64,000 nt of DNA from an uncultured Gemmatimonadales bacterium (GTDB lineage Bacteria; Gemmatimonadota; Gemmatimonadetes; Gemmatimonadales; GWC2-71-9). A model generated the notes under the pieces. The model was not told where the DNA came from. It saw nothing but the letters and a program-made list of their open reading frames with translations, and did no database searches. Each line of letters begins with the position of its first letter. Positions within the stretch are counted from its first letter, which is position 1. This document shows positions 1,663 to 21,316 of this stretch, one piece after another. The translations under genes were made by a program, and so were the position numbers. The stretch is from positions 64,001 through 128,000 of the forward strand of contig CAWJIM010000006.1 in assembly GCA_963842945.1 (NCBI GenBank), written 5' to 3'.

Positions 1663-3060
1663 GGTCTGGTCTAGGTCTGGAGGCCAGGGTCTAAAGTCTA
1701 GCGACTGGGGTCTGGCGCTCTGGCGTCTGGCAACTGCAATGCGGTACACCGGGTAACTCAGGGCCAGCAGCACCATGGATTTCCAGCTATGACTCCAGTC
1801 AGTGACCACCGATCCCGCCAGGAATGCCAGCGAGCCAACGAGCGCGAGACCGGTGGTGAACGGGAACCCCGGCACCCGGAACGGTCTGGGCGTGTCGGGC
1901 TCCTTCCGCCTGAGGGTGAACACACTGATGAACGACAGGGTGTAGTTGACCACAAAGAAGAAAGCGCAGAGGGCGAGCACCGACTCGACGGTACCGCTGA
2001 CGATCAGTCCGGCCGCCACCCCGATGCTGGTCCAGTGGGCCACGCGTCGGAGTGCCGCCCGGGTTCACCGTCTCCAGCGCGGAGGGAAGCAGCCGGTCCC
2101 GGCTCATGGCCAGCAGGACCCTGGGCGCCATCAGGGCACAGGCATTCATGCCGCTCAGGATTGAGACCAGCACGATCAAGCGGATCACCAGGTCGCCGCG
2201 TTCGCCGAAAAGCGCCTTGCCCGCACTGGCGGCCACGAAGGGATCGCCTGCCATCCGGCCCACGCCGAGCACGCGCACGAAGGCGACGTTGACCATGACG
2301 TAGATCAGAATGACCAGCAGCACTCCCAGTCACCATGGACCGCGGGTATGTCGCGGCCCGGATTCTTGGTCTCCTCACCGAAGTAGAGCGGGCCGGTCCA
2401 GCCGTCATAGGTGTAGATCACCGCCTGTAGCGCCAGCAGGATCGCAGTGACCAGGGCGAAGCCCGAGGGCAGCGTTGCCGCCGAGCCGGCGCTTCCGCCC
2501 GGCACGGGGACCAGGAGGCAGACCGTAATCAGGCTCCCGAATGCCAGCGCCTTGGCCGCACTCAGGATCTGCTGGGAGAGGTCGCCGATCCGGATTCCGC
2601 GCCAGAGCAGCAGTCCGAAGAGCAGCACAAGTCCTACGCCGGCCGGCACTCTTCGCCCCGCTAAAGCCGGAACCAGAGACTCGAGATACTCCATGAAGAC
2701 CATGCCGCCGAGCGCGACCGGTCCGCAGGTGGAGATCCAATCACTCCAGCCCACCACGAACGCCGGATACACGCCCAGTCCTCGACGGACGATCACGTAC
2801 TGGCCGGCGGATCGGGCGAACATCGCACCGGGTTCGGCCAGGGAGACGGCCCCGATCAGGGCATACAGGCCGCCGATGGTCCAGACCCCGATGATGAGCG
2901 CGGGATGGGGCAGCCGTGCGGCCACATCGCCGGGCGTCCGCAGAATCCCTATCAGAATGGTATTGCCGACCAGCACCGCGATGCCGAAGGAGACGCCGAG
3001 GACCTGGCGCAGCCTGCCTGTTCCGGTGGCGCGTTCCGGGCGAATGACGGTATCGGTCAG
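1663..3060 (-). CDS. APC family amino acid permease (frameshifted; start and stop uncertain)
   Basis: Three consecutive ORF segments: GNTILIGILRTPG, YTYDGW, PRVLLAMSRD, RPFRVPGFP. No stop before the ddaH start; possible CTG start at 3060. Confidence 0.8.
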
Positions 3061-3137
3061 CTGGAATTCCTGCGAGGGGTGGCCTCTAGGCTACAGGCCC
3101 AGAGGCGAGAGTGCCAGTGGTCGAGATTGCTTCGGCT

Positions 3138-3365
3138 TCAGCGAGCTGCCAGCGTATCTCGATCGGCTGCATCGATGGCAATGCTGTCGAGCTGGGAGCC
3201 GGCCGCGTCCCCATAGGCCCGGTAACCCTTTTCCTCGCCCGACGAGATCCAGGAGTCCTGCACCGCGATACGCTGCTCCCCTATCCGGTGCGCCAGGTAG
3301 GTCAGACCCGCCCCGGCCAGCAATACCGCAACTACAAACGAGAGCACCACGCTCAGTATCCGCAT
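3138..3365 (-). CDS. Small hypothetical protein with N-terminal membrane anchor
   Basis: GGAGG RBS before MRILSVVLSFVVAVLLAGAGLTYL. Confidence 0.5.
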   Translation of the reverse strand: MRILSVVLSFVVAVLLAGAGLTYLAHRIGEQRIAVQDSWISSGEEKGYRAYGDAAGSQLDSIAIDAADRDTLAAR

Positions 3366-3574
3366 TGGCTTAGCCTCCAAATCGTTGGGGGCAGGATAAG
3401 CGAGGGGAGTCAAGCACCAGTCAAGCCGCAACAAACTCGCCTCCAAGCCACTCCCGGTCAGCGACTTGGATCACAGGTGACCGGGCCAAGCCCGAAGCGG
3501 TGACCTCGACCACAACGCCCGCCGGTCCTTTAGTCCATACTGTGATCAAAGATTTACTCAGCGCTGGAGGCGCG

Positions 3575-4243
3575 ATGGCCATTCGAGCGACGCTGCTTGA
3601 GACGAGAGTTCAGGGGCTGCTGCTCCTCGGAGCCGCAGCCGGACTGATCTCGGCCTCAGCCGCCCCGCTCGCAGCCCAGCAAATCGAAGTTCGACCCATC
3701 GCCAGATTCTCCCTCCCAACCAAGTTCTCGCTCCGCGACGGCACCCTTCAGGTGAGCCAGCGGGTGGGTTTCCGTTTCGGCGCCCAGATGACGCTCGCCT
3801 TCAACCAGCGCTTCGACGTGACCAACGCGGTCACGTACAGTCCCGGTTATGCCACGGTGAGCGGCTCGACCAAACGGGTCCAGGTCAGCTCCGGGGCACA
3901 GTCGGTCGCCGGGGTCACGGCGGCGCGATACTGGATCCGGCCGCCGGATCTTCCGCTCTCCTGGGAGGTGCACACCGGGCTGGGTCTGGTCTTCGGCGGG
4001 CAGCCGTCCTACCTGGATCTGCTCGACGGGTCCACCATGACGGCCGCGGTCGGCACCCGTGTTCGGTACCAGTTCCGCCAGCTCGTGAGCTTCTCCCTCC
4101 GGGTGGAGCAGCGCCTCCTGCGCCTCCAGTTCGGCGACCAGCTGGGCGGCAGCTCACGGCCGTTCCGAGTCGCGTTCGGCGTGGGGCTGCCCTTCCTGGA
4201 AAAGATTTCAATTCGAGAGTTGATCAGTAGTCTGCCGTTCTAG
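3575..4243 (+). CDS. Hypothetical secreted protein, probable outer-membrane beta-barrel
   Basis: GGAGG RBS, signal peptide ending LAA-QQ, alternating beta-strand pattern. Confidence 0.55.
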   Translation: MAIRATLLETRVQGLLLLGAAAGLISASAAPLAAQQIEVRPIARFSLPTKFSLRDGTLQVSQRVGFRFGAQMTLAFNQRFDVTNAVTYSPGYATVSGSTKRVQVSSGAQSVAGVTAARYWIRPPDLPLSWEVHTGLGLVFGGQPSYLDLLDGSTMTAAVGTRVRYQFRQLVSFSLRVEQRLLRLQFGDQLGGSSRPFRVAFGVGLPFLEKISIRELISSLPF

Positions 4244-6328
4244 CGGGGGAAGGCTTCGGGTAGTCCTCCGTCCACGGTGAGGATGTCTCCGGTAGTGAAC
4301 CGGAACCGATTGCTGGCGAGCAGTACGGCCAGATCCGCCACCGCTTCCGGGGGAATCAGCGTGGCTCCCATGAGGTTTCGGCTCCGATATGCCTCCAGCT
4401 GCTGCTCGACGGAAACGCCGCGGCTGGCGGCGCGCTCCCGCACGAACTGCATGAACAGCGGAGTCTCGACCTGGTCTGCGTTGATGGCGTTCACCCGGAT
4501 GTTGTGCGGCCCCAGCTCGACCGCCGCGACCCGGAGGGCCTGGAGCAGCGCGGCCTTGCTCCCGGCATACGCCACTGCGTCTCGGCCCGGCACCAATGCG
4601 GCCTTGGAGACCGACGCGACGATCGAGCCACCCAACTCCTGGCGCTGCATGATGGCCGCCGCCCGGCCGATCGCCCGGACAGCGCCCAGGTAGTGCACCT
4701 CGAGCTGCCGCTGGAGATCGTCCCGGGTTATTTCGGTGACTGGAGCGAAACGCGGCGGCAGGCCGGCGGTGTAGAACAGGCAGTCGAGGCCACCGAACTC
4801 CAGCACCGTCCTTCGGAACAGCGCGTCGAGACTGGCGTCGTCCCGCACGTCGGTAGGCACCGCTATGGCGCGCGCGGGAAATTTTCGCCCGACCTCATCC
4901 GCGACCCGGTCGCACTGCTCGCCATCCAGATCGGCTACCACCACGTGGGCGCCCTCTTCGGCAAAGCGTTCCGCTGCCGCTTTCCCGATCCCGCTGCCGC
5001 CACCGATGATCACGACGATGTGCCGAGCAAGGAGTTTGGTGGCGCGGTCTCTCGCGATCTGCTCCTCGATCTTGCGGCGCTCCAGCGGCCAGTGCTCGAA
5101 CTCGAACACGTCCGCTTCGGGAATAAACTCGAAGCGATCGATCGCCTCGGCATTCTCGATGCTCTCGAGCACCGCGCGATAGCAGACGTTCGCGGTGACC
5201 GCGCCGCGCTTGTCGGCGAAGGCGGTAACCATGCCGAGGCCGGGGAGGAGGATGACCTTGGCCCAGTCGTCGAGCGGGGATTCGCCGCTTTTGGCGTGTC
5301 TGCGGTGATAGGCCTCGTACTCGGTGCGGGCGGTGGAGAGCGCGGCGCGGATGGTGGCAGGGATTCTTCGCTTCGCTCAGGAGGACAGGAGGGGCTCAGG
5401 ATGACGGGCAAACGCCCGGCACGGAGCAGGTGCTCGGGGGTGGCCATGCCGCGGCGGACCAGCTCAGGGATCTCCTCGCCATCCAGCGCCAGCACCAGCT
5501 CATCCGAATCGTCGAAATGGAGAATGACGCGCTCGTTCCGGCCGAGTGCGCCGCGAATGACGGGGAGCACGAGCTCGGCGAGCTGATGCCGCTCGGCCGG
5601 CGGCGGAACCGGGCGCAGAGAGGCCAGGTCCGAGGGGCGGTCGGCTCGCCTGATGGCGATGAGCTCGTCCATTTTGCCGGTGATCTCGACCAGGCGGTCG
5701 TAGCATTCGGGGGCGTCCTTACCCCATACGACCAACCCGTGATGTGCCAAGGCGAAGGCGATCGCCTGTTCGGGATCCCTCAGCCCTCCGCCCTCCGCCC
5801 TCCGCAATGAGCTGGGCAACTGCCCGGGCCAGCGGAAATCCGGGACGCACGTACGGCACATACATCACCCGGCCATCGAACAGCTCATCCAGCAGCCGCT
5901 CGGCCTCGCTGTCCCTGATGTTGGTGAGGCTCATGGTGGGGACATCATGGGTATGGGCGATGACCCGTGTAGGGGAGCAGCGCGTGGAGCGGAGTCTCGA
6001 CGCTGGGCGCGGGACCCTCCTCCATCATGCACTGCGCCATGAACCGCATCATCTCGGCGTCGCTCATCGAGTCCGCGTCGCGTAGCGGGGCCAGACGGGA
6101 GAGAGAGAGCCGAGTGAATCCAGCGCGGTTGATGGTGCGGAGATCGGTGCCGCTCCCCTTTACCAGCAGAGTGTCCCCTTCCTTTACGGAAGTGTTCCCG
6201 CCGCCGGGCTGAACCAGACGGGTGTCGTGACCGATGAGATGGGAGAGATAGACCAGCTGGTCGAGCGGGTCGGGGCCGACTTCAGCCCAGCCCCCCGCCC
6301 GATCGCTTCGGGTGCGGGTCTCAGTCAT
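4240..6328 (-). CDS. Bifunctional class II aldolase / short-chain dehydrogenase (rhamnulose-1-P aldolase/SDR type), frameshifted
   Basis: GGGNTSVK, VKGSGTDL, PSVETPLH, HHG and TPEH in the aldolase part; GGGSGIG, YAGSK and VDGG in the SDR part. Spread over four ORF segments. Confidence 0.85.
5360..5405 (-). repeat. REP-like GTCATCCTGAGC...GAAGCGAAGAATCC element inside a CDS
   Basis: Minus strand reads GTCATCCTGAGC-CCCTCCT-GTCCTCCTGAGCGAAGCGAAGAATCC. Confidence 0.55.
5777..5805. repeat. Tandem heptamer (CCCTCCG)x3 plus CCCTCAG
   Basis: Directly visible in the sequence. Confidence 0.8.
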
Positions 6329-6337
6329 CGATGATGA

Positions 6338-6496
6338 TCAGACGTCGCCGCCCACCCGCCGGAAGAAGCCGACGATAAGCATGATGATGCCGACGATGAT
6401 CAGGAGATGGATCAGGATCCCGGCGACCTTGAACACCATGAAACCGACGACCCAGGCGATCACCAGCAGTATGCCGATGGGAATCAGACCTCTCAC
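6338..6496 (-). CDS. Small membrane protein, lmo0937/DUF5670-like (52 aa; not in ORF track)
   Basis: GAGGAGG RBS and GTG start: MRGLIPIGILLVIAWVVGFMVFKVAGILIHLLIIVGIIMLIVGFFRRVGGDV*. Confidence 0.8.
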   Translation of the reverse strand: MRGLIPIGILLVIAWVVGFMVFKVAGILIHLLIIVGIIMLIVGFFRRVGGDV

Positions 6497-6582
6497 GATG
6501 CCTCCTCTTCAGGGTGGCGACGGATGCTCCGGCCGAATGTGCAGTCCAAATCGGACGTTGGCTACGGGCGCGTGCGCCGACC

Positions 6583-8315
6583 TCACTCCGCAATAGGAAC
6601 CACCGGCAGCACAATGCGCGAGGCCCGATCGGCCGAGTGCCCGATTCGGATCTCCCCGGCTCTGACGCTGTCGCTCTCGAACTCCTGCGCCCCCGTCTGG
6701 GGATTTACGGAGAACAGGGGATAGAACTGCGGAGTGATAACCAGCCGCAGGCGGTGCCCGGGCAGAAATCGATTGGCGGTCACCATCCGGTCCATCCGAA
6801 GTCTTACCGTCTCGCCCGATCTCACCAGCCGCCGCTCGGGCCCGCCTTCCCGGTAGCTTGCTCGTTGCAGCGCCGTGCCGGGAGTCGAGAGATTCCAGGC
6901 CGTGCCATCGGGCGCCACATCGAAGAGCTGGGCCCAGACGTCGAAGTCGGGCACTGTGGCACTCACGGCCAGCTCGATGACCACCTGGCCGATGATCTCG
7001 ACCGCCGTGCTGAACGCCGAAGTCTCGAACACCGCTATGCCAGGGCCGGCCACCAGCGAGCGGTAATCGTGCGCGCCGAACTTTCCATCGAAGGGATCAG
7101 TGACCGGACGGGCGGGATCGGAGCGAATTACTGTTGTCCCGGCGCCGCTCGCAGGCGCACGTCGCATCAGAAGACCCGGCAGACCCTCCGCTGCGGTCTG
7201 GGGGACCCGCCAGGTAGAAGGTGTCCGAATGCACGCCGGCGAGGGGCCAGCGATCTGAAGTTCGCCAGTGGTTCGCACCCATCACGAACACCCGCACCCG
7301 CGGCTGGGTCCTGAGAGAGTCCACTCTCTTGAGGTGCCGGTCCATCCAGCCCAGGACCGTCGCCCCGTAATCCAGCGCCGCCGATGGTCCGAAGTCACGG
7401 TCGCCGGCCTTGCTCCGCTGGACCGATGCTACGCCATGGGTCCAGGGGCCGAGCACCAGGGCGTCGCCGGCGCCCAGAAAATTTTCTACCGCGCCGGCCG
7501 GGCCGTACATCTCGTCAAACCAGCCCGAGAGGTTGAGCACCGGCGCATCCACCCGGGCGTAGCGCCCGCCCAGCCGGGCAAAGCTCCAGTACGAGTCGCC
7601 GGGCGGATGGCGCATCCACTCGAAGTACCAGGGCGTGACCCCCTCGAGCTGGGGCAACTCGAGCATAGGCCGGTATCGGCGAGCGGCGGCTCCCTCCTTG
7701 TCCCAGCTCCGGGCGGCCTCCTCATCGGTCCTGGGTCCCGCGACGCCGAGCCGGCGCCGGAGGTCGGGGGCGATGTTGAGCCAGGTCCAGTCGAGCCAGG
7801 ATCCATCCCACACTCCGCCCGAGTACCAGAAGCTCTCCGGGCTGGAGAAGGTCATGGCCGGGACCATCGCCTTGAGGGATGGCGGGTGTTCGACGGCGGC
7901 GAGCCACTGCACCGCGCCGGGGTAGGAGAGCCCGAAGGTACCGACCGATCCGTTGGACCAGGGCTGACGCGCAACCCACTCGATGGTGTCGTACCCGTCC
8001 CGGCCCTCCTGCTGGTAGGGCTCGAAAACACCACCAGAGCCGTAGCGGCCCCGGACGTCCTGCAGCACCACTGCGTAGCCCCGGCGCACGGCCGCGAGCA
8101 CCAGCGGGTCAGGAGGAGCTTCGACCCGGCTGTACGGGGTTCGGTAGACCAGGACCGGGAACCGTCCGTCGCTGGGGGGCCGGTAGAGATCGGCTCGGAG
8201 CACGACGCCGTCTCGCATGGGGATGGCCACTCCGGTGTCGACCCGGGCGGGTGACTGGCCGGCAAGCCGGGAGGCGGCCAGAAGAAGGGCAAAGAGAGAC
8301 GACGATGCGCTTCAT
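6583..8315 (-). CDS. CocE/NonD family hydrolase (peptidase S15), frameshifted
   Basis: IPMRDGVVLRADLYRP, RTPY, DVRGRYGS, GLSYPG nucleophile, GPWTH and a PepX-like C-terminal domain. Signal peptide MKRIVVSL. Confidence 0.85.
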
Positions 8316-8333
8316 GATGCGCGACCTGCCGGA

Positions 8334-9983
8334 CTACACCACCTTACCGATATGGGCGTGGACGAAGCTGACGGCCATTGCCCCTTCGCCGACGGCTGAG
8401 GCGACGCGCTTGATCGAACCGCTGCGCACGTCGCCCGCGGCAAACACGCCGGGCAGGCTGGTCTCCAGGAGAAAGGGTGACCGGCCGGCCGCGCGCCACC
8501 GGTCGTTCGCCACGATGCTCCGGGGAAGCCCGTCGCCGGTGACGACGAATCCCTTGTTGTCCAGCTCCACGCAGTCGCGCAGCCACTCGGTGTTGGCGTC
8601 GGCGCCGATGAAGAGAAACAGCGAGCTGGTGTCGAACCGGAACTCTCGTCCATCGGGCCGCTGGGCACACACCGCGTCCAGTCGCCCGTTGCCTTCCAGC
8701 TTGGTCACCCGAGTTTCCAGGTAGGTCTCGACATTCTCCAGCCCGCCCACTCGGTCGATCAGATAGCGCGACATGCTGGCGTTCAGGTCCTTGCCTCGCA
8801 CCAGGTGATGCACCCGCCGGGCATACTTCGCGAGGAAGACGAGGGCCTGCCCGGCGGAATTGCCCGCGCCCACCACGACCACCTCCTCGCCACCGCACAG
8901 CTTGGCCTCCATCGGCGTCGCCGCGTAGTAGATGCCCGCTCCTTCGAATTCGCCGAATCCGGGCACGGCGAGCTTTCGGTATTCCACGCCGCTCGCGATC
9001 AGCACGCACCGGCTCTGGAGCCGAATCCCGTTCTCCAGCTTCACCTTTCGGTCGCCACCGTCGAGGCCCAGGGACTCCACCGGGGACGCAATGGTGATCT
9101 GGGCACCGAACCGTTGGGCCTGCATCATCGCATTGTCGGTGAGCTCGGCGCCCGAGATTCCCGAGGGAAAACCGAGATAGTTGTCGATCCGGGAGCTGGT
9201 GCCGGCCTGCCCCCCGGCGGCCAGCGAGTCCAGCGTCAGCACATCGAGCCCCTCCGACGCGGCGTAGACCGAGGCCGCCAGACCGGCCGGTCCGGCACCG
9301 ACGATCACGAGATCATAGACGTGACCCGGCTCCAGCTCGGCCGTGAGCCCGGCGCAGCCGGCGAACTGTTCGTTGCTGGGATTGCGGTGAAAGCGGCCCT
9401 GCTGTCCCACCACTATCGGTGTGTCCGCTGGGGGCACGCCCAACTCCCGCAGCAGCACCTCAGCCTCGGGATCGGTCTCCACATCCATGAAGCGATAGGG
9501 AATCCCGTTACGCTGGGCGAAGTCACGGAGACGGTGGGCGTCGGAGGAAAAGCGGGAGCCAACAATCCTGACCCCCTCGAACCCGTCCGCCCGGATCAGC
9601 TCCCGGCGCCGCAGAAAGGCCTTGATGATGGTATCGCCCAGCTCGGGCAACTCGTCCGCCGCCCGGCGGAGATCTGCCGAGCTCAGCTCGACCAAGCTGC
9701 CATCCTCTATGGCCCGTCCGGTGACCAACACGGAGCGACCGCTGAGCACGTCGATATCGCCGGTGAACTGGCCCGGGCGATGCACCGTGATTTGCCGGGG
9801 TGTACCCCGGGAGTTCTCCACGATCTCCACTGCTCCGTCCAGTACGAGGAAGAAGGCGCGGTTCCGATCGCCCTCGGAGAACAGGGTGTCGCCGGCGTGC
9901 ATCTCACGCGGCTTGCCGCGCGCTGTGAGTGCAGCGATGTCAGTGGGGCTGAGAACGGGAAAGGCTACATCAAGGTCGGCCAT
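8334..9983 (-). CDS. cNMP-binding domain / FAD-dependent thioredoxin reductase-like protein
   Basis: N-terminal cNMP fold (LFSEGD...PGQFTGD), GAGPAG, IDNYLGFP, GAGNSAGQ, FAAGDVRSGS. Confidence 0.88.
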   Translation of the reverse strand: MADLDVAFPVLSPTDIAALTARGKPREMHAGDTLFSEGDRNRAFFLVLDGAVEIVENSRGTPRQITVHRPGQFTGDIDVLSGRSVLVTGRAIEDGSLVELSSADLRRAADELPELGDTIIKAFLRRRELIRADGFEGVRIVGSRFSSDAHRLRDFAQRNGIPYRFMDVETDPEAEVLLRELGVPPADTPIVVGQQGRFHRNPSNEQFAGCAGLTAELEPGHVYDLVIVGAGPAGLAASVYAASEGLDVLTLDSLAAGGQAGTSSRIDNYLGFPSGISGAELTDNAMMQAQRFGAQITIASPVESLGLDGGDRKVKLENGIRLQSRCVLIASGVEYRKLAVPGFGEFEGAGIYYAATPMEAKLCGGEEVVVVGAGNSAGQALVFLAKYARRVHHLVRGKDLNASMSRYLIDRVGGLENVETYLETRVTKLEGNGRLDAVCAQRPDGREFRFDTSSLFLFIGADANTEWLRDCVELDNKGFVVTGDGLPRSIVANDRWRAAGRSPFLLETSLPGVFAAGDVRSGSIKRVASAVGEGAMAVSFVHAHIGKVV

Positions 9984-10043
9984 ACAAAGATTCCCTGAAG
10001 GAGAAGCGCTTCAGGGAATCTAGAGGTAGAATGGATTAACCGC

Positions 10044-10469
10044 TCAGGGATACGCGCCGCCGCCTCCGCCGCCACTGCCGCCGCCCCCGGTCCCACCACT
10101 GCCTCCGGACGAGCCGGTAACGGTGACGGTACCGCTCATGGCGGCGCCGTGAATGGTGCAGAGGTAACTGAAGGTGCCGGCGGCGGCGAAGGTCCGCTGG
10201 AAGGAGCCCGAGCTCTTGTTGCCGGACGTGGTGCCGTCCTGGAAGGTGACGTTGTGCACCACCCCGCCGGAGCTCCAGTTCCAGGTGACCGTGGTATTGA
10301 CCGGTACCGTAAGGGCGGCCGGGCTGAAGCTGAGGGTTCCGCTGGGGCCGACGCTGACAGTCGAGGCGCCACCGCCGTCCGTGGGACTGCTGGGACTGGG
10401 ACTGTCGTCTCCCGAGCACGCCAAGGCAGCAACGCCCGCCACGGCCAGGATTAGACGCAGGTGTCTCAT
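10044..10469 (-). CDS. Plastocyanin/azurin-like cupredoxin lipoprotein
   Basis: Lipobox ALAC; type-1 Cu ligands HNV...CTIHGAAM; Gly-rich tail. Confidence 0.85.
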   Translation of the reverse strand: MRHLRLILAVAGVAALACSGDDSPSPSSPTDGGGASTVSVGPSGTLSFSPAALTVPVNTTVTWNWSSGGVVHNVTFQDGTTSGNKSSGSFQRTFAAAGTFSYLCTIHGAAMSGTVTVTGSSGGSGGTGGGGSGGGGGGAYP

Positions 10470-10659
10470 GGGATCTCCGGTTGAAGAAGGCGCCCACCGG
10501 AAAATTCCCGGCTAAGGAGCGGGGTAGCCGAAGTAGCTCATTGCCAATCGTTTCCTGACGCTAGCCGAGACCTTGACCGAGGTCTTGTAAGCGGATAGCT
10601 CCCTTGTAGGGATCTAGCGCTGTGAGGCTGGGTGCGCCAGAGACGTCAGTAGGGACACT

Positions 10660-11475
10660 ATGGTACGCAAAGCGAGAGCTGACTCCAGCAGGAGCCGGCG
10701 CATCGTCGCCGGCGGGTTTACCGTCACCGAGGGCATCCACCGGCACGGGGCCGAGCTGCCCTGGCACGATCACCCGACACCAACGATCTGCTTTGTGCTC
10801 AAGGGGGCGTTCACCGAGGCATGGCGCGGAGGTTCCATCGCCTGCACCAGCTCGACCCTGAAGATTACGCCCGCGGGCGAGCGCCACTGGGATCGATTCA
10901 ATCGGGGGGACGTCCGTGGTCTTCTGATCGAAGCGGATCAGCAGCAGGTCGCCGCCATCCGCCCTCACTCGGCGGTGCTGGACGAGCGGGAGGCGTTCCA
11001 GGGTGGGCCACTGTCGACCTACGGCTGGCGGGTGTATCACGAGCTGCAGGTAATGGACGCGACCGCGCCACTGGCGATCGAGGGCTTACTGCTGGAGCTG
11101 GTGGCAGCAGCGTCGCGGCTGAAGGTCCATAGTCACCACGGCCGGAGCCTGCCGCACTGGCTGCAGGAGTCGCGGGAGCGGATCCACGCCGAGCTGGGCG
11201 GCCGGCCGAGTTTGAGCGAGCTGGCGGGCGCCGTTGGGGTACATCCGGTTACTCTGGCGCGGGGATTCCGGCAGGCGTTCGGCTGTACTGTGGGCGAGTA
11301 TATCCGCAACCTTCGGATCGAGCGAGCGACGCTGCAGCTGGCCGACACCGACCTCCCGCTGGCGGAGATTGCGCTGGGGGCGGGATTTTCCGATCAGAGC
11401 CACTTCTCCAACATGTTTCGGCAGCACACCGGGTTTTCGCCCTCGAAATTCAGAGAGATTTCCCGGTCTGCCTAG
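10660..11475 (+). CDS. AraC family transcriptional regulator
   Basis: Cupin (WHDH) plus C-terminal HTH (GFSDQSHFSNMFR). Confidence 0.9.
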   Translation: MVRKARADSSRSRRIVAGGFTVTEGIHRHGAELPWHDHPTPTICFVLKGAFTEAWRGGSIACTSSTLKITPAGERHWDRFNRGDVRGLLIEADQQQVAAIRPHSAVLDEREAFQGGPLSTYGWRVYHELQVMDATAPLAIEGLLLELVAAASRLKVHSHHGRSLPHWLQESRERIHAELGGRPSLSELAGAVGVHPVTLARGFRQAFGCTVGEYIRNLRIERATLQLADTDLPLAEIALGAGFSDQSHFSNMFRQHTGFSPSKFREISRSA

Positions 11476-11513
11476 ACCCAGATCCTTCGCTCACGTACCG
11501 CTTACCCTTCTTC

Positions 11514-12029
11514 CTAGGAGAGCGCCGCGAAGCCTGCGCCAACGACCATAGCCACTCCCAGCCCCATCTTGATCGCGACGGCGGCCGCCCGGCCGAGCAC
11601 CGCGCCCCAGCCGGCTCGAACCGAGCCTTCCGCTTGGCGGGCCTTGGTGTACTCGAACACCGCCGCGCCGATGAAGGCGCCGACGAACCCGCCGATGACC
11701 GATCCAACGACTGGAATGGGCACCCCGACCACGGCGCCGACCAATCCTCCCACCAGCGCGCCCCAACCCGCCCGGCTCGATCCGCCGTAGCGCTTGGCGA
11801 ACCGGAAGCCGATCCAAGACTCGAGCACCTCTCCGAGCAGGGCCAGGGCGACCGCCAGGATGAGGAAGCCGGTGCTCAGAGTTCGAAAGCCGGTGATCCA
11901 GCCGTAACCGATGATGCCCAGCAGAATCACCCAGAGGCCAGGCAGGCCGAATGGGATCAGCAGCAGGCCGATGACGCTGGCGGCCGCGAGAAGCAGGGCG
12001 CCGGTGGAGTCAGTGAGCTCCAGAGACAT
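11514..12029 (-). CDS. DUF456 family membrane protein
   Basis: LPGLW and KRYGGSSRAGWGALVGGLVG motifs. Confidence 0.85.
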   Translation of the reverse strand: MSLELTDSTGALLLAAASVIGLLLIPFGLPGLWVILLGIIGYGWITGFRTLSTGFLILAVALALLGEVLESWIGFRFAKRYGGSSRAGWGALVGGLVGAVVGVPIPVVGSVIGGFVGAFIGAAVFEYTKARQAEGSVRAGWGAVLGRAAAVAIKMGLGVAMVVGAGFAALS

Positions 12030-12039
12030 GACGTTCGCG

Positions 12040-12453
12040 TCAGCCTACCAGCACCGCGACCAGCTCCCGGTCGCGCGCCCGATTGTCCAGGTTGATGGCT
12101 ACGACTTGTTGCCAGGTGCCGAGCACGAGCTCGCCATTGACGACCGGCACCGAGATGCTGGCTTTAAGTAGAGCGGAGCGCACGTGGGAGAAGCCGTTGC
12201 CATCGCCCCAGCGAGCGTTGTGGGCGTAGTCGGCGTCGGTAGGTGCGAGCAGGTCAAGAGCGCGGCGGAGGTCGGTGAGGGCGCCAGACTCGTATTCGAT
12301 GGTCGTGATGGCGCCGGTCGAGCCGATGAGTTCTACGGTGAGTGTCCCGCTTTTCACCCCCGAGCCACTGACGAACTTCTCCAGCTCGGGGGTGATGTCG
12401 GCGTGGCCGAACTCGGCGGCGAGCCGAAGGGTCCAGCGGTGAGTCGCGGCCAT
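12040..12453 (-). CDS. yjbQ: YjbQ/UPF0047 family protein
   Basis: GSTGAITTIEYE, HNARWGDGNGFSH, LGTWQQV. Confidence 0.88.
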   Translation of the reverse strand: MAATHRWTLRLAAEFGHADITPELEKFVSGSGVKSGTLTVELIGSTGAITTIEYESGALTDLRRALDLLAPTDADYAHNARWGDGNGFSHVRSALLKASISVPVVNGELVLGTWQQVVAINLDNRARDRELVAVLVG

Positions 12454-12474
12454 AGACCAAGATAGCCGCAGTAT

Positions 12475-13857
12475 CTATCTCTTTCCCTCCACCGGCAGGC
12501 CACTCGGTACCCGGCCCGGCACCACGCCGGCAAGGTTGCGAGCGGACGGATCGGTCAGCGCCTTCATGAACTCGGTAACCTCATCCACCGTCTGCGGCGC
12601 GAACACCACGCCCTGGAGTAGCGGATCACGCGTGGCCAGGATGTCGGCCTTGTTGCCGAGAATTGTCCCCTGAAGCACCGGTTCCAATTGGGCGATGTTG
12701 AAGTTCATCAGCTTGATGTCCGACTCGCTATAGTGGTCCACGAACTCGCGCAGGCTGAAGAAGGCACCGTTGTGTCCGTACGGCGCCGTCAGCTCGACAT
12801 TCCGGAGCGCGGGGGTGCGGAAGGCATACTTGTCAGCGGCAATGCCGGTTTCCCGGAAGCGGCCGAAGTCGTCCCGCAGACTGGGGCCGTCACCCTTTCC
12901 CGGCCCGAACTGGGCCACGGCCACATTGTGGAACTTGTTGTCCGTCAGCGCCGACCCGTTGTGGCAGATGGAGCAGCGGGCGCTCATGAAGTTCTTGGCT
13001 CCCTGCAGCTGGACCTGGGTCATCGCCTCATCGTTCCCCCGGAGAAAGCGATCCCAGGGAGAGTTGTTGAACGACAGCCGATCGATCAGGAACCCCGCGA
13101 TGGCGTTGCTGGCGTGGGCAAACGTCATCTGCTCGAACCGCTGCCCGGGGTAGGCCTTCTCGAACATGTGGCGGTACTGCCGGTTCGCACCCAGTCGTGC
13201 CATCAAGCCGGCCCAGATCTGCTGGGGATGGTCATCACCGATTGCGGCCAGCTCGTTGCCGCCGAAGGCCCGCATCTCCTCGCGGGAGAGCACAGGGAAG
13301 AGCGGCAGGGCGGACGCGGTCCCGAACTCGAACACCTGCGTCATTGCCGGCGTCAGGTCTGCGCCCGCCGGCGTGTGGAAGTTGCCCAGCCCGTCCCGAT
13401 TCACGCGGCCGTCCCAGAAGAGTGGCTGGAGCGCGGCCAGGTTGAAGAGGGGAGGAGCGTTGCGGGGGATGAACAGGCCATCGGGGTGGAGCCGAGCCGG
13501 CCCAAGACCAGTCGCCCCCTGCCCGACCGAGAGGCTCCGCGCGTCGCCGGTGGCCATCGAGGGCAGATGGCAGGTCATGCAGGAGATGTCGCGGTTGCCG
13601 CTCAGGATCTTGTCGAACGCCAGCGCCTGGCCCAGCTCCACCAGCGCGGGACGGACCTGGGGCGGCTTGGGCAGCGCGGTGATCCCCCGTCCCGCCGTGA
13701 GTAGACGGACCTCGGCCGCCAGAGCGTGCACTCCGGCTCGAGAAGCGTCGGCCGAAAGAACTTTGCCCGGAGCGGTGGAATCGTCCTCGCTGCAACCGAA
13801 CAGCGCGACCACCGCCGCGGATACGGCTAGTCTGCCGACCCACGCCCCGCCTGCCAT
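12475..13857 (-). CDS. Di-heme cytochrome c peroxidase/MauG superfamily lipoprotein
   Basis: Lipobox LFGC; CMTCH and CSICH; RNAP, LFWDGR, FRTPALRNVELTAPYGHNG. Confidence 0.88.
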   Translation of the reverse strand: MAGGAWVGRLAVSAAVVALFGCSEDDSTAPGKVLSADASRAGVHALAAEVRLLTAGRGITALPKPPQVRPALVELGQALAFDKILSGNRDISCMTCHLPSMATGDARSLSVGQGATGLGPARLHPDGLFIPRNAPPLFNLAALQPLFWDGRVNRDGLGNFHTPAGADLTPAMTQVFEFGTASALPLFPVLSREEMRAFGGNELAAIGDDHPQQIWAGLMARLGANRQYRHMFEKAYPGQRFEQMTFAHASNAIAGFLIDRLSFNNSPWDRFLRGNDEAMTQVQLQGAKNFMSARCSICHNGSALTDNKFHNVAVAQFGPGKGDGPSLRDDFGRFRETGIAADKYAFRTPALRNVELTAPYGHNGAFFSLREFVDHYSESDIKLMNFNIAQLEPVLQGTILGNKADILATRDPLLQGVVFAPQTVDEVTEFMKALTDPSARNLAGVVPGRVPSGLPVEGKR

Positions 13858-16824: not shown

Positions 16825-16879
16825 GGAGCCAACTTACACTTTGCTGGGCCAGTCGCTACGCTGGACTGGACCGGGTGAG

Positions 16880-17072
16880 CTAACCCTTCATCGCAGCGAA
16901 GGGGCTACGCCTAGGCTCCAGCCGATCATAGTACCGGGCGGGATTCGACTCGAAGTCCCGTCGGCACTGGTCGGAGCAGAAATACACTGGCCTGCGATTC
17001 GTATGTGGTGCTGCCCGCGGCGTCACTCACCTCGATCCACATACCGCAGACCGGATCTTTCACGTTACTCAC
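16880..17072 (-). CDS. YHS-domain protein (one extra base; not in ORF track)
   Basis: AGGAG RBS, then MSNVKDPVCGMWIEVSDAAGSTTYESQ / PVYFCSDQCRRDFESNPARY...; shift near 16990. Confidence 0.8.
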
Positions 17073-17127
17073 ACTGCACTCCTGGCTAGACACTGAGTTC
17101 AGTGTTGCGGGCCAGGCACGAGGGCTC

Positions 17128-17143
17128 TGTGATGTGAATCACA
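17128..17143. promoter_or_regulatory. CRP-type binding site TGTGA-N6-TCACA
   Basis: Perfect TGTGAtgtgaaTCACA, centred about 63 bp upstream of the YHS start codon. Confidence 0.65.
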
Positions 17144-17186
17144 AACAAAACGGCCCGCACTTCCGGGTGGAAATGCGGACCGTTTT
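17141..17186 (-). terminator. Intrinsic terminator
   Basis: Long stem with two G-U pairs on the minus strand, ending in UUUUGUUUG. Confidence 0.8.
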
Positions 17187-17510
17187 CACACTGGCTATCC
17201 GGAGTCGGAGGATTTGCTCCTCCGTTTTTCTTCCCTTGGCCACCGCCTAAACTGAAGCGTTTGCGGTCTGGCCTCAGGAGCTCCGGTTTTTATTCCCGAA
17301 TGATTTGCGCGACCACTCGGTTCACCAGCGTGTGCGCTGCAAGTCGGCTGAATCGCGGATCAACCTCTTGCTCGGCACGCTGCCGCGCTACTGCAGCGTG
17401 GATGAGACGCGCGATTGGTCTCAACAATCCAACACGAAAATGATCTTTTTTCGAATTGGCGAAGACAACATAGGAAGACTGTTTCCATCGCGCAAGAGGG
17501 TGGCAGTTAT
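17147..17510 (-). ncRNA. Candidate large structured ncRNA of unknown family
   Basis: About nine nested stems, minus-strand G-U wobbles, TTGACA at 17536-17541, terminator at the 3' end, no convincing ORF. Confidence 0.55.
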
Positions 17511-17586
17511 CCACTTACGTGAACATTTCTAACATTGTCAACAGCTGCGTGGGAGGGCGAAACCATTGGCCGGTTCACTGGGTTAG

Positions 17587-18631
<1,045 letters not shown>

Positions 18632-19682: not shown

Positions 19683-21316
19683 TTACTTATCCTTGTTCTT
19701 GTCCTTGTCCTTGTTCTTGTCAACGTCGGTCCGGTTCTTCAGCGCCTGCTCCGGATCCACGCCGAGCTGCCGGCCAAGCTGCTTGGCCTCGTTGAAGTTC
19801 TGCTCCAATGTGGGCAGGCCGGCGTTGACCAGCTGCCGCACCTGGGCCGACTGGCTCGCGCGACCTTCCTTCTGCCAGTAGCTCGTCTCATCGGAGTACT
19901 GCTGGATCATGGTAACCATGTAGGCCTGATCGAAGTTCTTGTCGCCTACCTTCTTCAGGTTGGTGACCTTCTCCTTATGCATCGGGCCAAGGCCTTTGCT
20001 CAAGGTCATGCCGTTCTTCGAGGCCATGGCGCTCCACTGGTTCTGCAGCCGGTTGTGATCGGTGATGGCCTGCTCGGCGAACTGACGCACCTGCGGGTTT
20101 TTGGATCTCTCCCGCGCCAGCTGAGCCAGCTCGATCTGCATCTGGTTGTCTGCGCTCACGTCACGAATGAATTCGGCATCGGCTTTGATGTCGCCGTGGC
20201 GCGCCACCGCCGTTCCCACCGGCATTGTTCCCGGTGCTATCGGCGCCGACCTGACTACCGACCTGCACCGCCAGGCTCAGATGCTGCTGCATCACCGGGA
20301 GGCTGTTGGCCGCCAGGGTGCGTACTTGGAGCGGAATTGGCCGACTGGCTCTGGGTCTGGAAGTGGCTCACGTCCCGCTGATGGGCGCGGATCATGAGGC
20401 TCATGTAGTTGCGGTCGAATTCGGCACCCGAGAGGCCCTGGAGCTGGTTGATCTGATTCTGGTGGCGCGAATCCATCGTAGGCGTGAAGCTCTGTCCGCT
20501 GGTGGACGCCACGCTCGTGAGCTGATTCTGCAGGTTGTTGTGATCGGCAACCATCCGCTGGGCAAACTGCTTGACTGCCGGGTTGGAGGCCTTGCTCTGG
20601 GCCATCTGTCCCAGACTGATCTCCATGAGATTGGCGCTCGGCGCTTCACGCACGAACGGCATATCCGCGCTGATATCACCCGGTGTGGTCACCTGCCCCG
20701 GCTGCGTGCTCACCGGCGGGTTCTGCGTGGTCGGAGAGGTAGTGGGATTCCGGTATGGCTGGGTGGCGACGGCCACTCCACCGTTGGCGCCCACCTGTCC
20801 ACCTACCTGGGTGGCTGTGCTCAGGTGCTGCTGCAGCACCGGCAGGGCCGCGGCAATCATCTGCCGAGCCTCGGAAGACTTGGCTGTCTGACCCTGACTC
20901 TGGAGCGTCGAGATGTCCTGCTGATGGTGCTGAATCATCGAGGTCATGTACTGCTGGTCAAACTGCGCCCCGGAGAGCTTCTCCAGCCGGGAGACTTCGG
21001 CTTCGTTGTCCTTGCTCATCGCAGGCTGGAAGTTGGCGTTGTTCTTGGAGACCAGGCCGGTGAGCTGGTTTTCCAGATTAGTGTGATCGGTCACCATCTG
21101 CTGGCCGAACTGCTTGACGGCGGCATTACTGGCCTTCTGCTGCGCCATCTGTCCCAGCCTCACTTCCATGATGTTGCTGCTGGCCATCTGGAAGATGAGT
21201 TTGCTGTCCTGGCTCAACTGGCTTATCTGCCCCTGCGCATGGATCGGGGCGAGAGGCACGGCGGCAAGGGCGATCACCAGCCCGCTGGCCGCGGCCATGA
21301 TTCTCGGTCCTGACAT
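19683..21316 (-). CDS. Secreted protein with three DUF4142 domains (frameshift near 20330)
   Basis: Signal peptide, then three repeats of ME/Q-LGQ/AQ-A...V(K/R)QF...DH...FD..YM..MI. Confidence 0.8.

What the first reader, a model, noticed from the sequence alone, without database searches (positions are those of the whole stretch)
17147..17541. Candidate ~360-nt multi-domain structured ncRNA with its own promoter element and terminator
Seen (plus-strand coordinates): Domain 1 is closed by CCTCTTGC 17364-17371 / GCAAGAGG 17492-17499. It contains hairpins CACGCTGC/GCAGCGTG (17376-17400), TGAGAC/GTCTCA (17403-17423) and CGAAAA/TTTTCG (17435-17453). Domain 2 is a long stem at 17301-17362 capped by CAGCG-4nt-CGCTG. 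Domain 3 is closed by CCGGAG 17199-17204 / CTCCGG 17281-17286 and holds hairpins at 17206-17224 and 17238-17273. A terminator follows at 17141-17186. Mismatches become G-U pairs on the minus strand. TTGACA lies at 17536-17541, but the -10 is imperfect (TAAGTG). The one ORF listed on this strand (74 aa, GTG) starts inside the predicted -10 and has no RBS. Known: it lacks the tmRNA, RNase P and group II intron hallmarks, and is branched, unlike the rod-shaped 6S. Inference: a free-standing RNA gene of a family I cannot name.
Basis: partly seen in the sequence, partly recalled or inferred. Interest (0 to 1): 0.8.

Follow-up and report, generated by a model that had tools for sequence, protein, structure and literature searches.

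The report
Abundant double-pseudoknot RNA of soil Gemmatimonadales
This is a real, apparently undescribed non-coding RNA gene with a tightly conserved double-pseudoknot fold, carried by almost every member of two families of uncultured soil bacteria and well represented in soil RNA samples, so it adds a new class to the short list of large bacterial RNAs whose job is still unknown.

Summary
Homologs put the promoter at -35 17495-17490 and -10 17472-17467, so the RNA starts near 17460 and runs about 275 nt to a terminator at 17186-17147 (minus strand). A covariance model finds it in 73 of 74 genomes of the window's family, 2 of 2 of a sister family and 0 of 74 other genomes of the phylum. Its constant part is a 97-nt core of three hairpins tied by two pseudoknots; 25 of 38 pairs show compensatory change in 61 sequences. 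No Rfam match. The 74-aa ORF is not conserved. Soil metatranscriptome contigs pile up over the RNA and not beside it. The window copy is a second paralog. The main copy lies within 2 kb of an orphan 205-aa gene in 75 of 76 genomes, often with a yhaM-like RNase gene. Best reading: a new trans-acting ornate RNA that works like raiA-motif or OLE RNA without being either; function inferred only.

The parts
17507..17543 (-).
   Evidence: Conserved in the genus alignment. At least one box within 1 mismatch in 64 of 123 promoter regions (17 of 20 of this subtype), against 8.7% of shuffles and 1.6% of random genome windows. Box consensus recalled; binding protein inferred.
17490..17495 (-). Sigma-70-type -35 hexamer
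   Evidence: The -35/16-17 nt/-10 pattern lies upstream of 123 of 143 distinct members, against 0.007 expected per 330 nt. It stays just before the RNA when the 5' extension is deleted.
17467..17472 (-). -10 hexamer; predicted +1 about 17460
   Evidence: Homologs vary toward the consensus, including TATAAT. Contig cover falls to about 0 above 17491, and loose ends of divergent homologs run 27-37 letters past 17422. The start was not mapped directly.
17187..17460 (-). Structured RNA body, about 275 nt (second paralog, subtype II)
   Evidence: The MFE of exactly this span reproduces the comparative model, z = -5.55. Model R1 scores the core-to-terminator part at 299 bits.
17429..17459 (-). P1 hairpin with a self-complementary loop word at 17441-17446; remnant of a 140-nt 5' domain in the main paralog
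   Evidence: Loop word self-complementary in 68 of 73 registrable rows; 50 of 123 rows could not be registered.
17403..17423 (-). Core hairpin P2; its loop (17410-17415) forms pseudoknot 1
   Evidence: 6 of 8 pairs of this helix with compensatory change.
17352..17357 (-). Loop of P4: 3' side of pseudoknot 1 (kissing loop, 6 bp)
   Evidence: 97.5% of cells paired; 3 of 6 pairs change on both sides. The outer pair ranks 5th of all column pairs by MI-APC, G-C 34, A-U 19, C-G 1 of 61.
17376..17400 (-). Core hairpin P3; its loop (17385-17388) forms pseudoknot 2
   Evidence: 6 of 8 pairs compensatory.
17339..17371 (-). Core hairpin P4 (two stacked helices around a conserved bulge)
   Evidence: 8 of 12 pairs compensatory.
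17334..17337 (-). 3' side of pseudoknot 2 (4 bp)
   Evidence: 99.6% of cells paired; C-G to U-A in 6 and G-C to A-U in 1 of 61 rows.
17187..17332 (-). 3' domain: closing helix P5 (17325-17332 with 17187-17194), P6 (17296-17320), P7, P8 (17238-17273), purine linker (17224-17235), P9 (17206-17224)
   Evidence: P5 7 of 8 and P6 7 of 9 pairs compensatory. Full domain in 112 of 143 members; shortened or lost in others.
17141..17186 (-). Intrinsic terminator
   Evidence: A strong hairpin with at least 4 U around its 3' end in 118 of 143 members.

Best explanation
A lineage-wide, independently transcribed, abundant structural RNA that acts in trans. SHOWN: own promoter pattern and terminator, a fixed-geometry double-pseudoknot core with optional 5' and 3' domains, presence in nearly every genome of two Gemmatimonadales families, extra paralogs, and heavy representation in soil RNA libraries (about 0.95). 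INFERRED: the compact core is the functional unit and serves as the scaffold of a ribonucleoprotein, as OLE and raiA-motif RNAs are thought to. The orphan 205-aa protein encoded beside the main copy is the first candidate partner, and the particle acts in the switch between growth and dormancy. The window copy is a duplicate, stripped of most of the 5' domain, under its own upstream elements.
For: Covariation: 96.3% of cells paired, 25 of 38 pairs compensatory, 0 of 500 shuffles as high, slid controls 35-41%; the 17 top MI-APC pairs are all model pairs. Not tied to a downstream gene: the next gene is convergent in 42 of 72 loci, same-strand in 26, uncalled in 4, and of many families. RNA-library depth in the thousands to hundreds of thousands over 17184-17447 in 3 of 4 runs (10-51 in the fourth), 0 over 16832-17095 and 17492-17667, at most 26 on the flanking genes. 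The orphan gene occurs in exactly the same 76 of 151 genomes, one copy each, within 2 kb of an RNA copy in 75 of 76. The linkage survives a rearrangement: upstream in the window's family, convergent downstream in 8 of 8 sister-family loci. 11 of 14 extra copies with a non-standard promoter lie beside universal stress protein, ribosome hibernation factor, RtcB/archease, phosphoribosyltransferase, CBS or baeRF10 genes; reading these as a dormancy set is recalled knowledge.
Against: No function was tested. RNA and orphan gene could both be clade markers kept by plain synteny; kin are not independent. The orphan protein is acidic (pI 5.2-6.2 in 6 rows) and its confident model has no clear fold match, so nothing points to RNA binding. 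The window copy and the other extra copies have no orphan gene beside them, and the window copy is not in a dormancy-type cluster. The dormancy-type neighbours may stem from one duplication. The expression evidence is unstranded contigs summed over many organisms, the tool warns that such depth cannot rank genes, and no DNA run was laid. The range is narrow (two families), unlike raiA or OLE.
Confidence: 0.5

Rival explanations
1. The 97-nt double-pseudoknot core is a new ribozyme (self-processing, or acting on another RNA); the other domains are peripheral supports.
For: Fixed core length, 12 invariant and 24 near-invariant positions in 61 sequences, and minimal natural versions of about 180-200 nt that keep only core, closing helix and terminator. 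PMC10861870 (part 1) notes that most large bacterial ncRNA classes of known function are catalytic. RNA ligase (RtcB) and RNase genes recur nearby.
Against: No match to any Rfam ribozyme. Contigs show no common internal break (joints: none). A stand-alone gene with promoter and terminator has no obvious cis substrate.
Confidence: 0.2
2. The RNA is an adaptor in RNA decay or repair, tethering the orphan protein to the YhaM-like 3'-5' exoribonuclease, as Y RNA does for Ro60 and PNPase (analogy recalled).
For: A yhaM-like gene (NCBIfam NF010007, below cut-off) lies in 20 of 35 main-copy loci with 3-kb flanks and in 6 of 8 sister-family loci in a different order.
Against: 15 of 35 loci lack it nearby, and no yhaM was found in the window's own genome (86.9% complete). 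yhaM also occurs in 17 of 42 genomes chosen for lacking the RNA.
Confidence: 0.1
3. A remote member of the raiA-motif class.
For: Two pseudoknots, one a 6-bp loop pairing; abundant stand-alone transcript; some extra copies lie by hibernation-factor and phosphoribosyltransferase genes, which echoes raiA/comFC (PMC10861870 part 2).
Against: The raiA model finds nothing at E <= 1 in 5 genomes, 4 of which carry the RNA (no control genome passed the cut-off, so sensitivity was not shown). No 5'-3' closing P1, which PMC12968392 (part 3) calls remarkably conserved. The order of the pseudoknot partners differs.
Confidence: 0.08
4. A free-standing small-molecule sensor or sponge whose 3' domain derives from a c-di-GMP-I aptamer.
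For: The 3' domain has a P1-P2-P3 layout and junction words that resemble the c-di-GMP-I consensus by eye. The genome has 10 such riboswitches over cut-off.
Against: Profiles of the 3' domain recover 0 of 12 c-di-GMP-I loci among 335 and 166 hits to E 200. The positions that would form the pocket pair with each other instead (G-C 23, A-U 6 of 30). 31 of 143 members lack the full domain.
Confidence: 0.07
5. A cis-acting leader or riboswitch for the downstream UPF0182 gene, or a small-protein gene.
For: UPF0182 lies 318 nt downstream on the same strand; a 74-aa ORF overlaps the RNA.
Against: UPF0182 was within the fetched flanks in only 3 of 30 loci. The next gene is convergent in 42 of 72 loci. 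The ORF stays open for 70 codons in 1 of 21 genus homologs, stops at codon 9 in the closest one, and shows no third-position bias.
Confidence: 0.03

Closest known systems
raiA-motif RNA (Rfam RF03072; PMC10861870, PMC12968392)
   Same: Stand-alone, abundant, trans-acting-type RNA; compact core with two pseudoknots; variable peripheral stems; natural minimal forms.
   Different: No model match. No closing 5'-3' P1 with its two conserved bulges; the core is three consecutive hairpins. Found only in Gemmatimonadota here, against Bacillota and Actinomycetota. Has paralogs and a tightly linked orphan gene.
OLE RNA (PMC12286853, passages; OapA linkage as noted in PMC10861870)
   Same: Large ornate RNA with a linked protein gene. 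OLE L9.3 switches among the same three palindromic tetramers seen in the P1 loop here, which in OLE mark an intermolecular kiss.
   Different: Half the size or less; no Rfam match; the linked protein is a soluble orphan fold; palindrome covariation here is weak.
ROOL and GOLLD RNAs (PMC12286853)
   Same: Kissing loops, multi-stem junctions, function unknown.
   Different: No Rfam match; not found in viral contigs, phages or plasmids; chromosomal and near-universal in its clade.
c-di-GMP-I (GEMM) aptamer (RF01051)
   Same: The 3' domain has a similar three-helix layout and junction words by eye.
   Different: No statistical similarity; pocket positions paired; domain dispensable.
tmRNA, RNase P RNA, SRP RNA, 6S RNA
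   Same: Housekeeping-like distribution and abundance within the clade.
   Different: The genome has tmRNA, RNase P and SRP RNA elsewhere and a syntenic 6S-like candidate elsewhere.

Membership tests
raiA motif | Score above the RF03072 cut-off (101.3 bits) | tested here: not met
   0 of 5 genomes at E <= 1; no hit. No positive control over cut-off was among the controls.
raiA motif | P1 formed by the 5' and 3' ends with two conserved bulges (PMC12968392) | tested here: not met
   The 5' end forms local hairpins; the 3' closing helix starts after the core.
raiA motif | Two pseudoknots, one a 6-bp apical-loop pairing | tested here: met
   but the partners are another hairpin loop and a 3' linker, not one shared linker.
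raiA motif | Triangular tertiary core | not testable with these tools
   Needs a structure.
raiA motif | Between comFC and raiA genes | tested here: not met
   The main copy lies by an orphan gene and often yhaM. Hibernation-factor genes were seen in 2 extra-copy loci only.
c-di-GMP-I riboswitch | Score above the RF01051 cut-off, or sequence kinship to the genome's own members | tested here: not met
   Neither RNA copy is among 12 matches; the reverse profile search recovers 0 of 12.
c-di-GMP-I riboswitch | Upstream of a regulated same-strand gene | tested here: not met
   Next gene convergent in 42 of 72 loci.
c-di-GMP-I riboswitch | Ligand binding | not testable with these tools
   Needs in-line probing.
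6S RNA | Rod-like hairpin with a central bubble; RF00013 match | tested here: not met
   Branched and pseudoknotted; no RF00013 match in the genome; a separate 6S-like candidate lies on contig C23.
tmRNA / RNase P / SRP | Family model match; being the genome's copy | tested here: not met
   each is found elsewhere in the genome, none at this locus.
OLE / ROOL / GOLLD | Rfam family match | tested here: not met
   No hit among 4227 families for the window or 11 divergent loci.
OLE / ROOL / GOLLD | Homo-oligomer through symmetric kissing loops | tested here: inconclusive
   18 of 23 non-majority loop words stay self-complementary, null 13.3: 13 of 5000 shuffles as high by rows, 493 of 5000 by distinct words; 50 of 123 rows dropped. 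An unregistered version showed nothing.

The most novel reading that the evidence does not exclude
The 97-nt double-pseudoknot core is a new catalytic RNA or the heart of a new core ribonucleoprotein machine with an orphan-fold protein, self-assembling through palindromic loops. It would be one of the more abundant non-ribosomal RNAs of soil, and would have been duplicated into dormancy gene clusters as a regulated isoform.
Probability: 0.25. Interest if true: 0.93.

Novelty: new variant of a known kind. Interest (0 to 1): 0.8.

Why it matters
Large, pseudoknotted, stand-alone bacterial RNAs are few, and those whose function is solved are mostly ribozymes or core machines (PMC10861870, PMC5737381). 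This class comes with what is usually missing: natural minimal versions that mark the functional core, a single-copy orphan gene with an identical distribution as a partner candidate, paralogs under different promoters, and strong representation in public soil RNA data. It belongs to soil lineages known here only from MAG records, which would explain its absence from Rfam. It is small enough for in vitro probing and cryo-EM now.

Tried and rejected
Rfam at gathering and E-value thresholds on the window and 11 divergent loci: noise only. ARAGORN: nothing in the window. One search covered an irrelevant family (mistyped accession) and carries no information. A search for new tertiary pairs by complementarity alone was swamped by G-U noise and was replaced by MI-APC. 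111 of 119 hits were true by model and all 111 are Gemmatimonadota; the 6 titled hits from other phyla and 2 untitled ones were not confirmed. Viral contigs gave 2 chance hits and then 0; metagenome contigs 5 hits, none confirmed; phages and plasmids none. The core-only model found nothing in 13 genomes of the third family of the order or in 22 genomes of other orders and classes; only about 104 candidates per genome were scored. Nothing beside yhaM in 17 RNA-less genomes. c-di-GMP-I ancestry of the 3' domain: not supported; a GEMM-style inter-domain pair did not covary. Orphan protein: no Pfam, NCBIfam, PDB-sequence or Atlas family. Foldseek gave nothing at E <= 0.001. VIA-align best Z 5.5 over 60 residues (AP2; WGR domains at 4.5-4.9), within the range of common arrangements. 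A complex prediction of the orphan protein with YhaM gave no verdict (score 0.00) and is not evidence either way. The spacer 16830-17128 is not unusually structured (z = -1.0). No GGA word lies wholly in a hairpin loop, so a CsrA-sponge reading was dropped. Literature: nine answered searches returned no paper on such an RNA. The library lacks most subscription papers and I opened no supplements, where a motif catalogue could list it. Earlier scan notes: nothing relevant.

Full report
OBSERVATION. The minus strand of 17135-17515 folds at -162.6 kcal/mol, z = -6.98, 0 of 100 shuffles as stable. The terminator is found at 17186-17147. Rfam gives no hit at gathering score in the whole window and 7 sub-threshold noise hits at E <= 10. 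The flanking genes are UPF0182 (minus strand, start 16824) and a divergent aldo/keto reductase.

HOMOLOGS. BLASTN found the element in 32 of 61 relatives. A covariance model built from 30 of them found it in 76 of 151 genomes of the phylum: 73 of 74 in the window's family besides the window's own genome, 2 of 2 in a sister family, 0 of 31 in the third family of the order and 0 of 43 in the nine other families. 19 of the 76 genomes have more than one copy, the window's genome two: here and C19:311653-311939. Nothing was confirmed in viral contigs, metagenome contigs, phages or plasmids. These are samples, so this means not found, not absent. Two genomes are unpublished: G003 (locus L020, one of 30 rows in A1 and one of the 3 UPF0182-adjacent loci) and G102 (locus L036, in the counts and in A2). 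No conclusion depends on them.

CORRECTED ENDS. The genus alignment shows a -35/17 nt/-10 pair at 17495-17490 and 17472-17467. The pattern lies upstream of 123 of 143 distinct members, against 0.007 expected per 330 nt. Its distance to the core is 120-155 nt in 96 members, 30-45 nt in 20 (the window's subtype) and under 20 nt in 5, so it tracks the 5' end through deletions. The start is therefore near 17460. TTGACA is present in 2 of 22 genus homologs; the others mostly carry a DnaA-box-like word, and such words are enriched upstream (64 of 123 against 8.7% of shuffles; consensus recalled). Folding 17460-17187 alone gives the comparative structure (z = -5.55).

STRUCTURE. In 30 full-length sequences 98.0% of cells pair and 43 of 82 pairs change on both sides; slid controls pair 37-41%. 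The constant part is a 97-nt core: hairpins P2, P3 and P4, a 6-bp kiss between the P2 and P4 loops, and a 4-bp pseudoknot between the P3 loop and the strand after P4. In 61 diverse cores (63 of 152 kept at under 90% identity, 2 more left out as too divergent to align) 96.3% of cells pair and 25 of 38 pairs are compensatory. Without being given the model, the 17 top MI-APC pairs are all model pairs, the outer kissing pair is 5th and the best pair of the second pseudoknot 22nd. The inner kissing pairs are almost invariant, so they are supported by few changes. The shuffle control ignores relatedness, and R-scape was not available. The periphery is modular. The main paralog (about 430 nt) has a 140-nt 5' domain, with 20 of 30 predicted pairs in that alignment compensatory. 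The window subtype keeps one hairpin of it. 31 of 143 members lack the full 3' domain, and the shortest forms are about 180-200 nt.

NOT CODING, NOT CIS. The 74-aa ORF stays open in 1 of 21 genus homologs and stops at codon 9 in the closest. The next gene is convergent in 42 of 72 loci by a crude ORF caller and of many families. A terminator-like end is present in 118 of 143 members.

EXPRESSION. 14 RNA-labelled runs, all soil or rhizosphere metatranscriptomes, hold 0.30-0.42 of the sampled words. Four were laid at 80% likeness. Summed contig depth over 17184-17447 is 2,052-12,794, 2,450-205,094, 10-51 and 3,342-393,060. It is 0 over 16832-17095 and 17492-17667 in all four and at most 26 on the flanking genes. 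Some contigs are near-identical to the window (147 nt with 0 differences, depth 505; 78 nt with 1, depth 3,796). Most cover ends at 17182-17191, the foot of P5, though one contig reaches 17134; this may be trimming or a library effect at the hairpin. Limits: contigs give no strand, depth is pooled over organisms, runs were chosen for holding this stretch, and no DNA run was laid.

CONTEXT. The main copy lies beside an orphan gene of about 205 aa. Its profile hits exactly the same 76 of 151 genomes, once each, within 2 kb of an RNA copy in 75 of 76; in the exception the two lie on different contigs, the RNA about 600 nt from a contig end. It is upstream in the window's family and convergent downstream in 8 of 8 sister-family loci. 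A yhaM-like exoribonuclease gene is in 20 of 35 main-copy loci with 3-kb flanks but was not found in the window's genome. The orphan folds confidently (pLDDT 88.7), matches no known fold, has only a handful of full-length clusters at 50% identity and is acidic. A tree of 69 rows, terminators trimmed, groups the window's subtype with 13 other extra copies (support 90/93, not starred) apart from the main copies. 11 of 14 extra copies with a non-standard promoter lie by stress or dormancy-type genes; the window copy does not.

HOW IT MOST LIKELY WORKS. Shown: a stand-alone, conserved, pseudoknotted RNA gene with RNA-library support (about 0.95). Inferred: the core is the working unit, acting in trans as the scaffold of a particle with the orphan protein, in growth-to-dormancy control (0.5 for the whole statement). 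Rivals: a new ribozyme (0.2), an RNA-decay adaptor with YhaM (0.1), a remote raiA member (0.08), a ligand sensor (0.07), a cis element or small ORF (0.03). A self-complementary word in the P1 loop is kept in all three long subtypes and varies among the palindromes that mark OLE's intermolecular kiss (PMC12286853, passages). My test of this was weak and dropped 50 of 123 rows, so dimerisation is a lead only.

COMPARISON WITH WHAT IS KNOWN. It behaves like raiA-motif RNA (PMC10861870, parts 1-2 of 7 read; PMC12968392, parts 1-3 of 6 read) but lacks the closing P1 and any model score, so it is not filed there. It is not tmRNA, RNase P, SRP or 6S, which have their own loci or candidates. The resemblance of the 3' domain to c-di-GMP-I failed a direct test. 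PMC5737381 (passages) does not mention the phylum in its main text. Nine answered literature searches found no description; supplements and subscription papers were not seen.

VERDICT. A new family within a known broad kind (large ornate bacterial RNAs of unknown function), with a fold I could not match to any of them. Interest 0.8.

Noticed in passing
window 17128-17143: Perfect CRP/FNR-type inverted box directly after the terminator, also kept in the closest relative (L002); probably controls the downstream UPF0182 promoter. Consensus recalled.
   Followed up: no
window 17632-18631: The aldo/keto reductase gene is split over two overlapping frames (227 and 164 aa), while the closest relative L002 has one open frame: a frameshift or a sequencing error.
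   Followed up: partly
L064 4913-5806 (G000:C19): The orphan gene of the window's genome reads 297 aa instead of about 205; similarity to relatives fades after about residue 190, suggesting a frameshift near its end.
   Followed up: no
G000:C23:176300-176437: Candidate 6S-like RNA below Rfam's reach: homologous (E 2.3e-5) and syntenic to a weak RF00013 hit in G057.
   Followed up: partly
G000 C21:353634, C3:187304, C5:174857, C21:118877, C18:66010: c-di-GMP-I riboswitches with a long, apparently branched P3 insertion and altered junction letters; the last two fall below the Rfam cut-off. A possible lineage-specific variant.
   Followed up: no
G000 C16:176381 and C10:29575: Two full tmRNA genes in one assembly (contamination 6%).
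   Followed up: no
L065 (G024:C9:32300-46000): Cluster of two universal stress protein genes, archease, RtcB and a hibernation factor, then an RNA copy, then HemJ-like and radical-SAM genes; a decayed second RNA copy lies 6.5 kb on.
   Followed up: partly
L048, L051, L053, L059, L076, L080, L083, L137, L156, L182 upstream regions: Extra copies share a different promoter with repeated short TTCA words before a -10-like element; regulator unknown.
   Followed up: no
window 16930-16960 and 17090-17105: Small strong hairpins in the spacer before UPF0182; the spacer as a whole is not unusually stable (z = -1.0).
   Followed up: partly
window 19683-21316: Two neighbouring minus-strand ORFs that look like DUF4142 proteins by eye (not scanned); a DUF4142 gene flanks the RNA in L006.
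   Followed up: no
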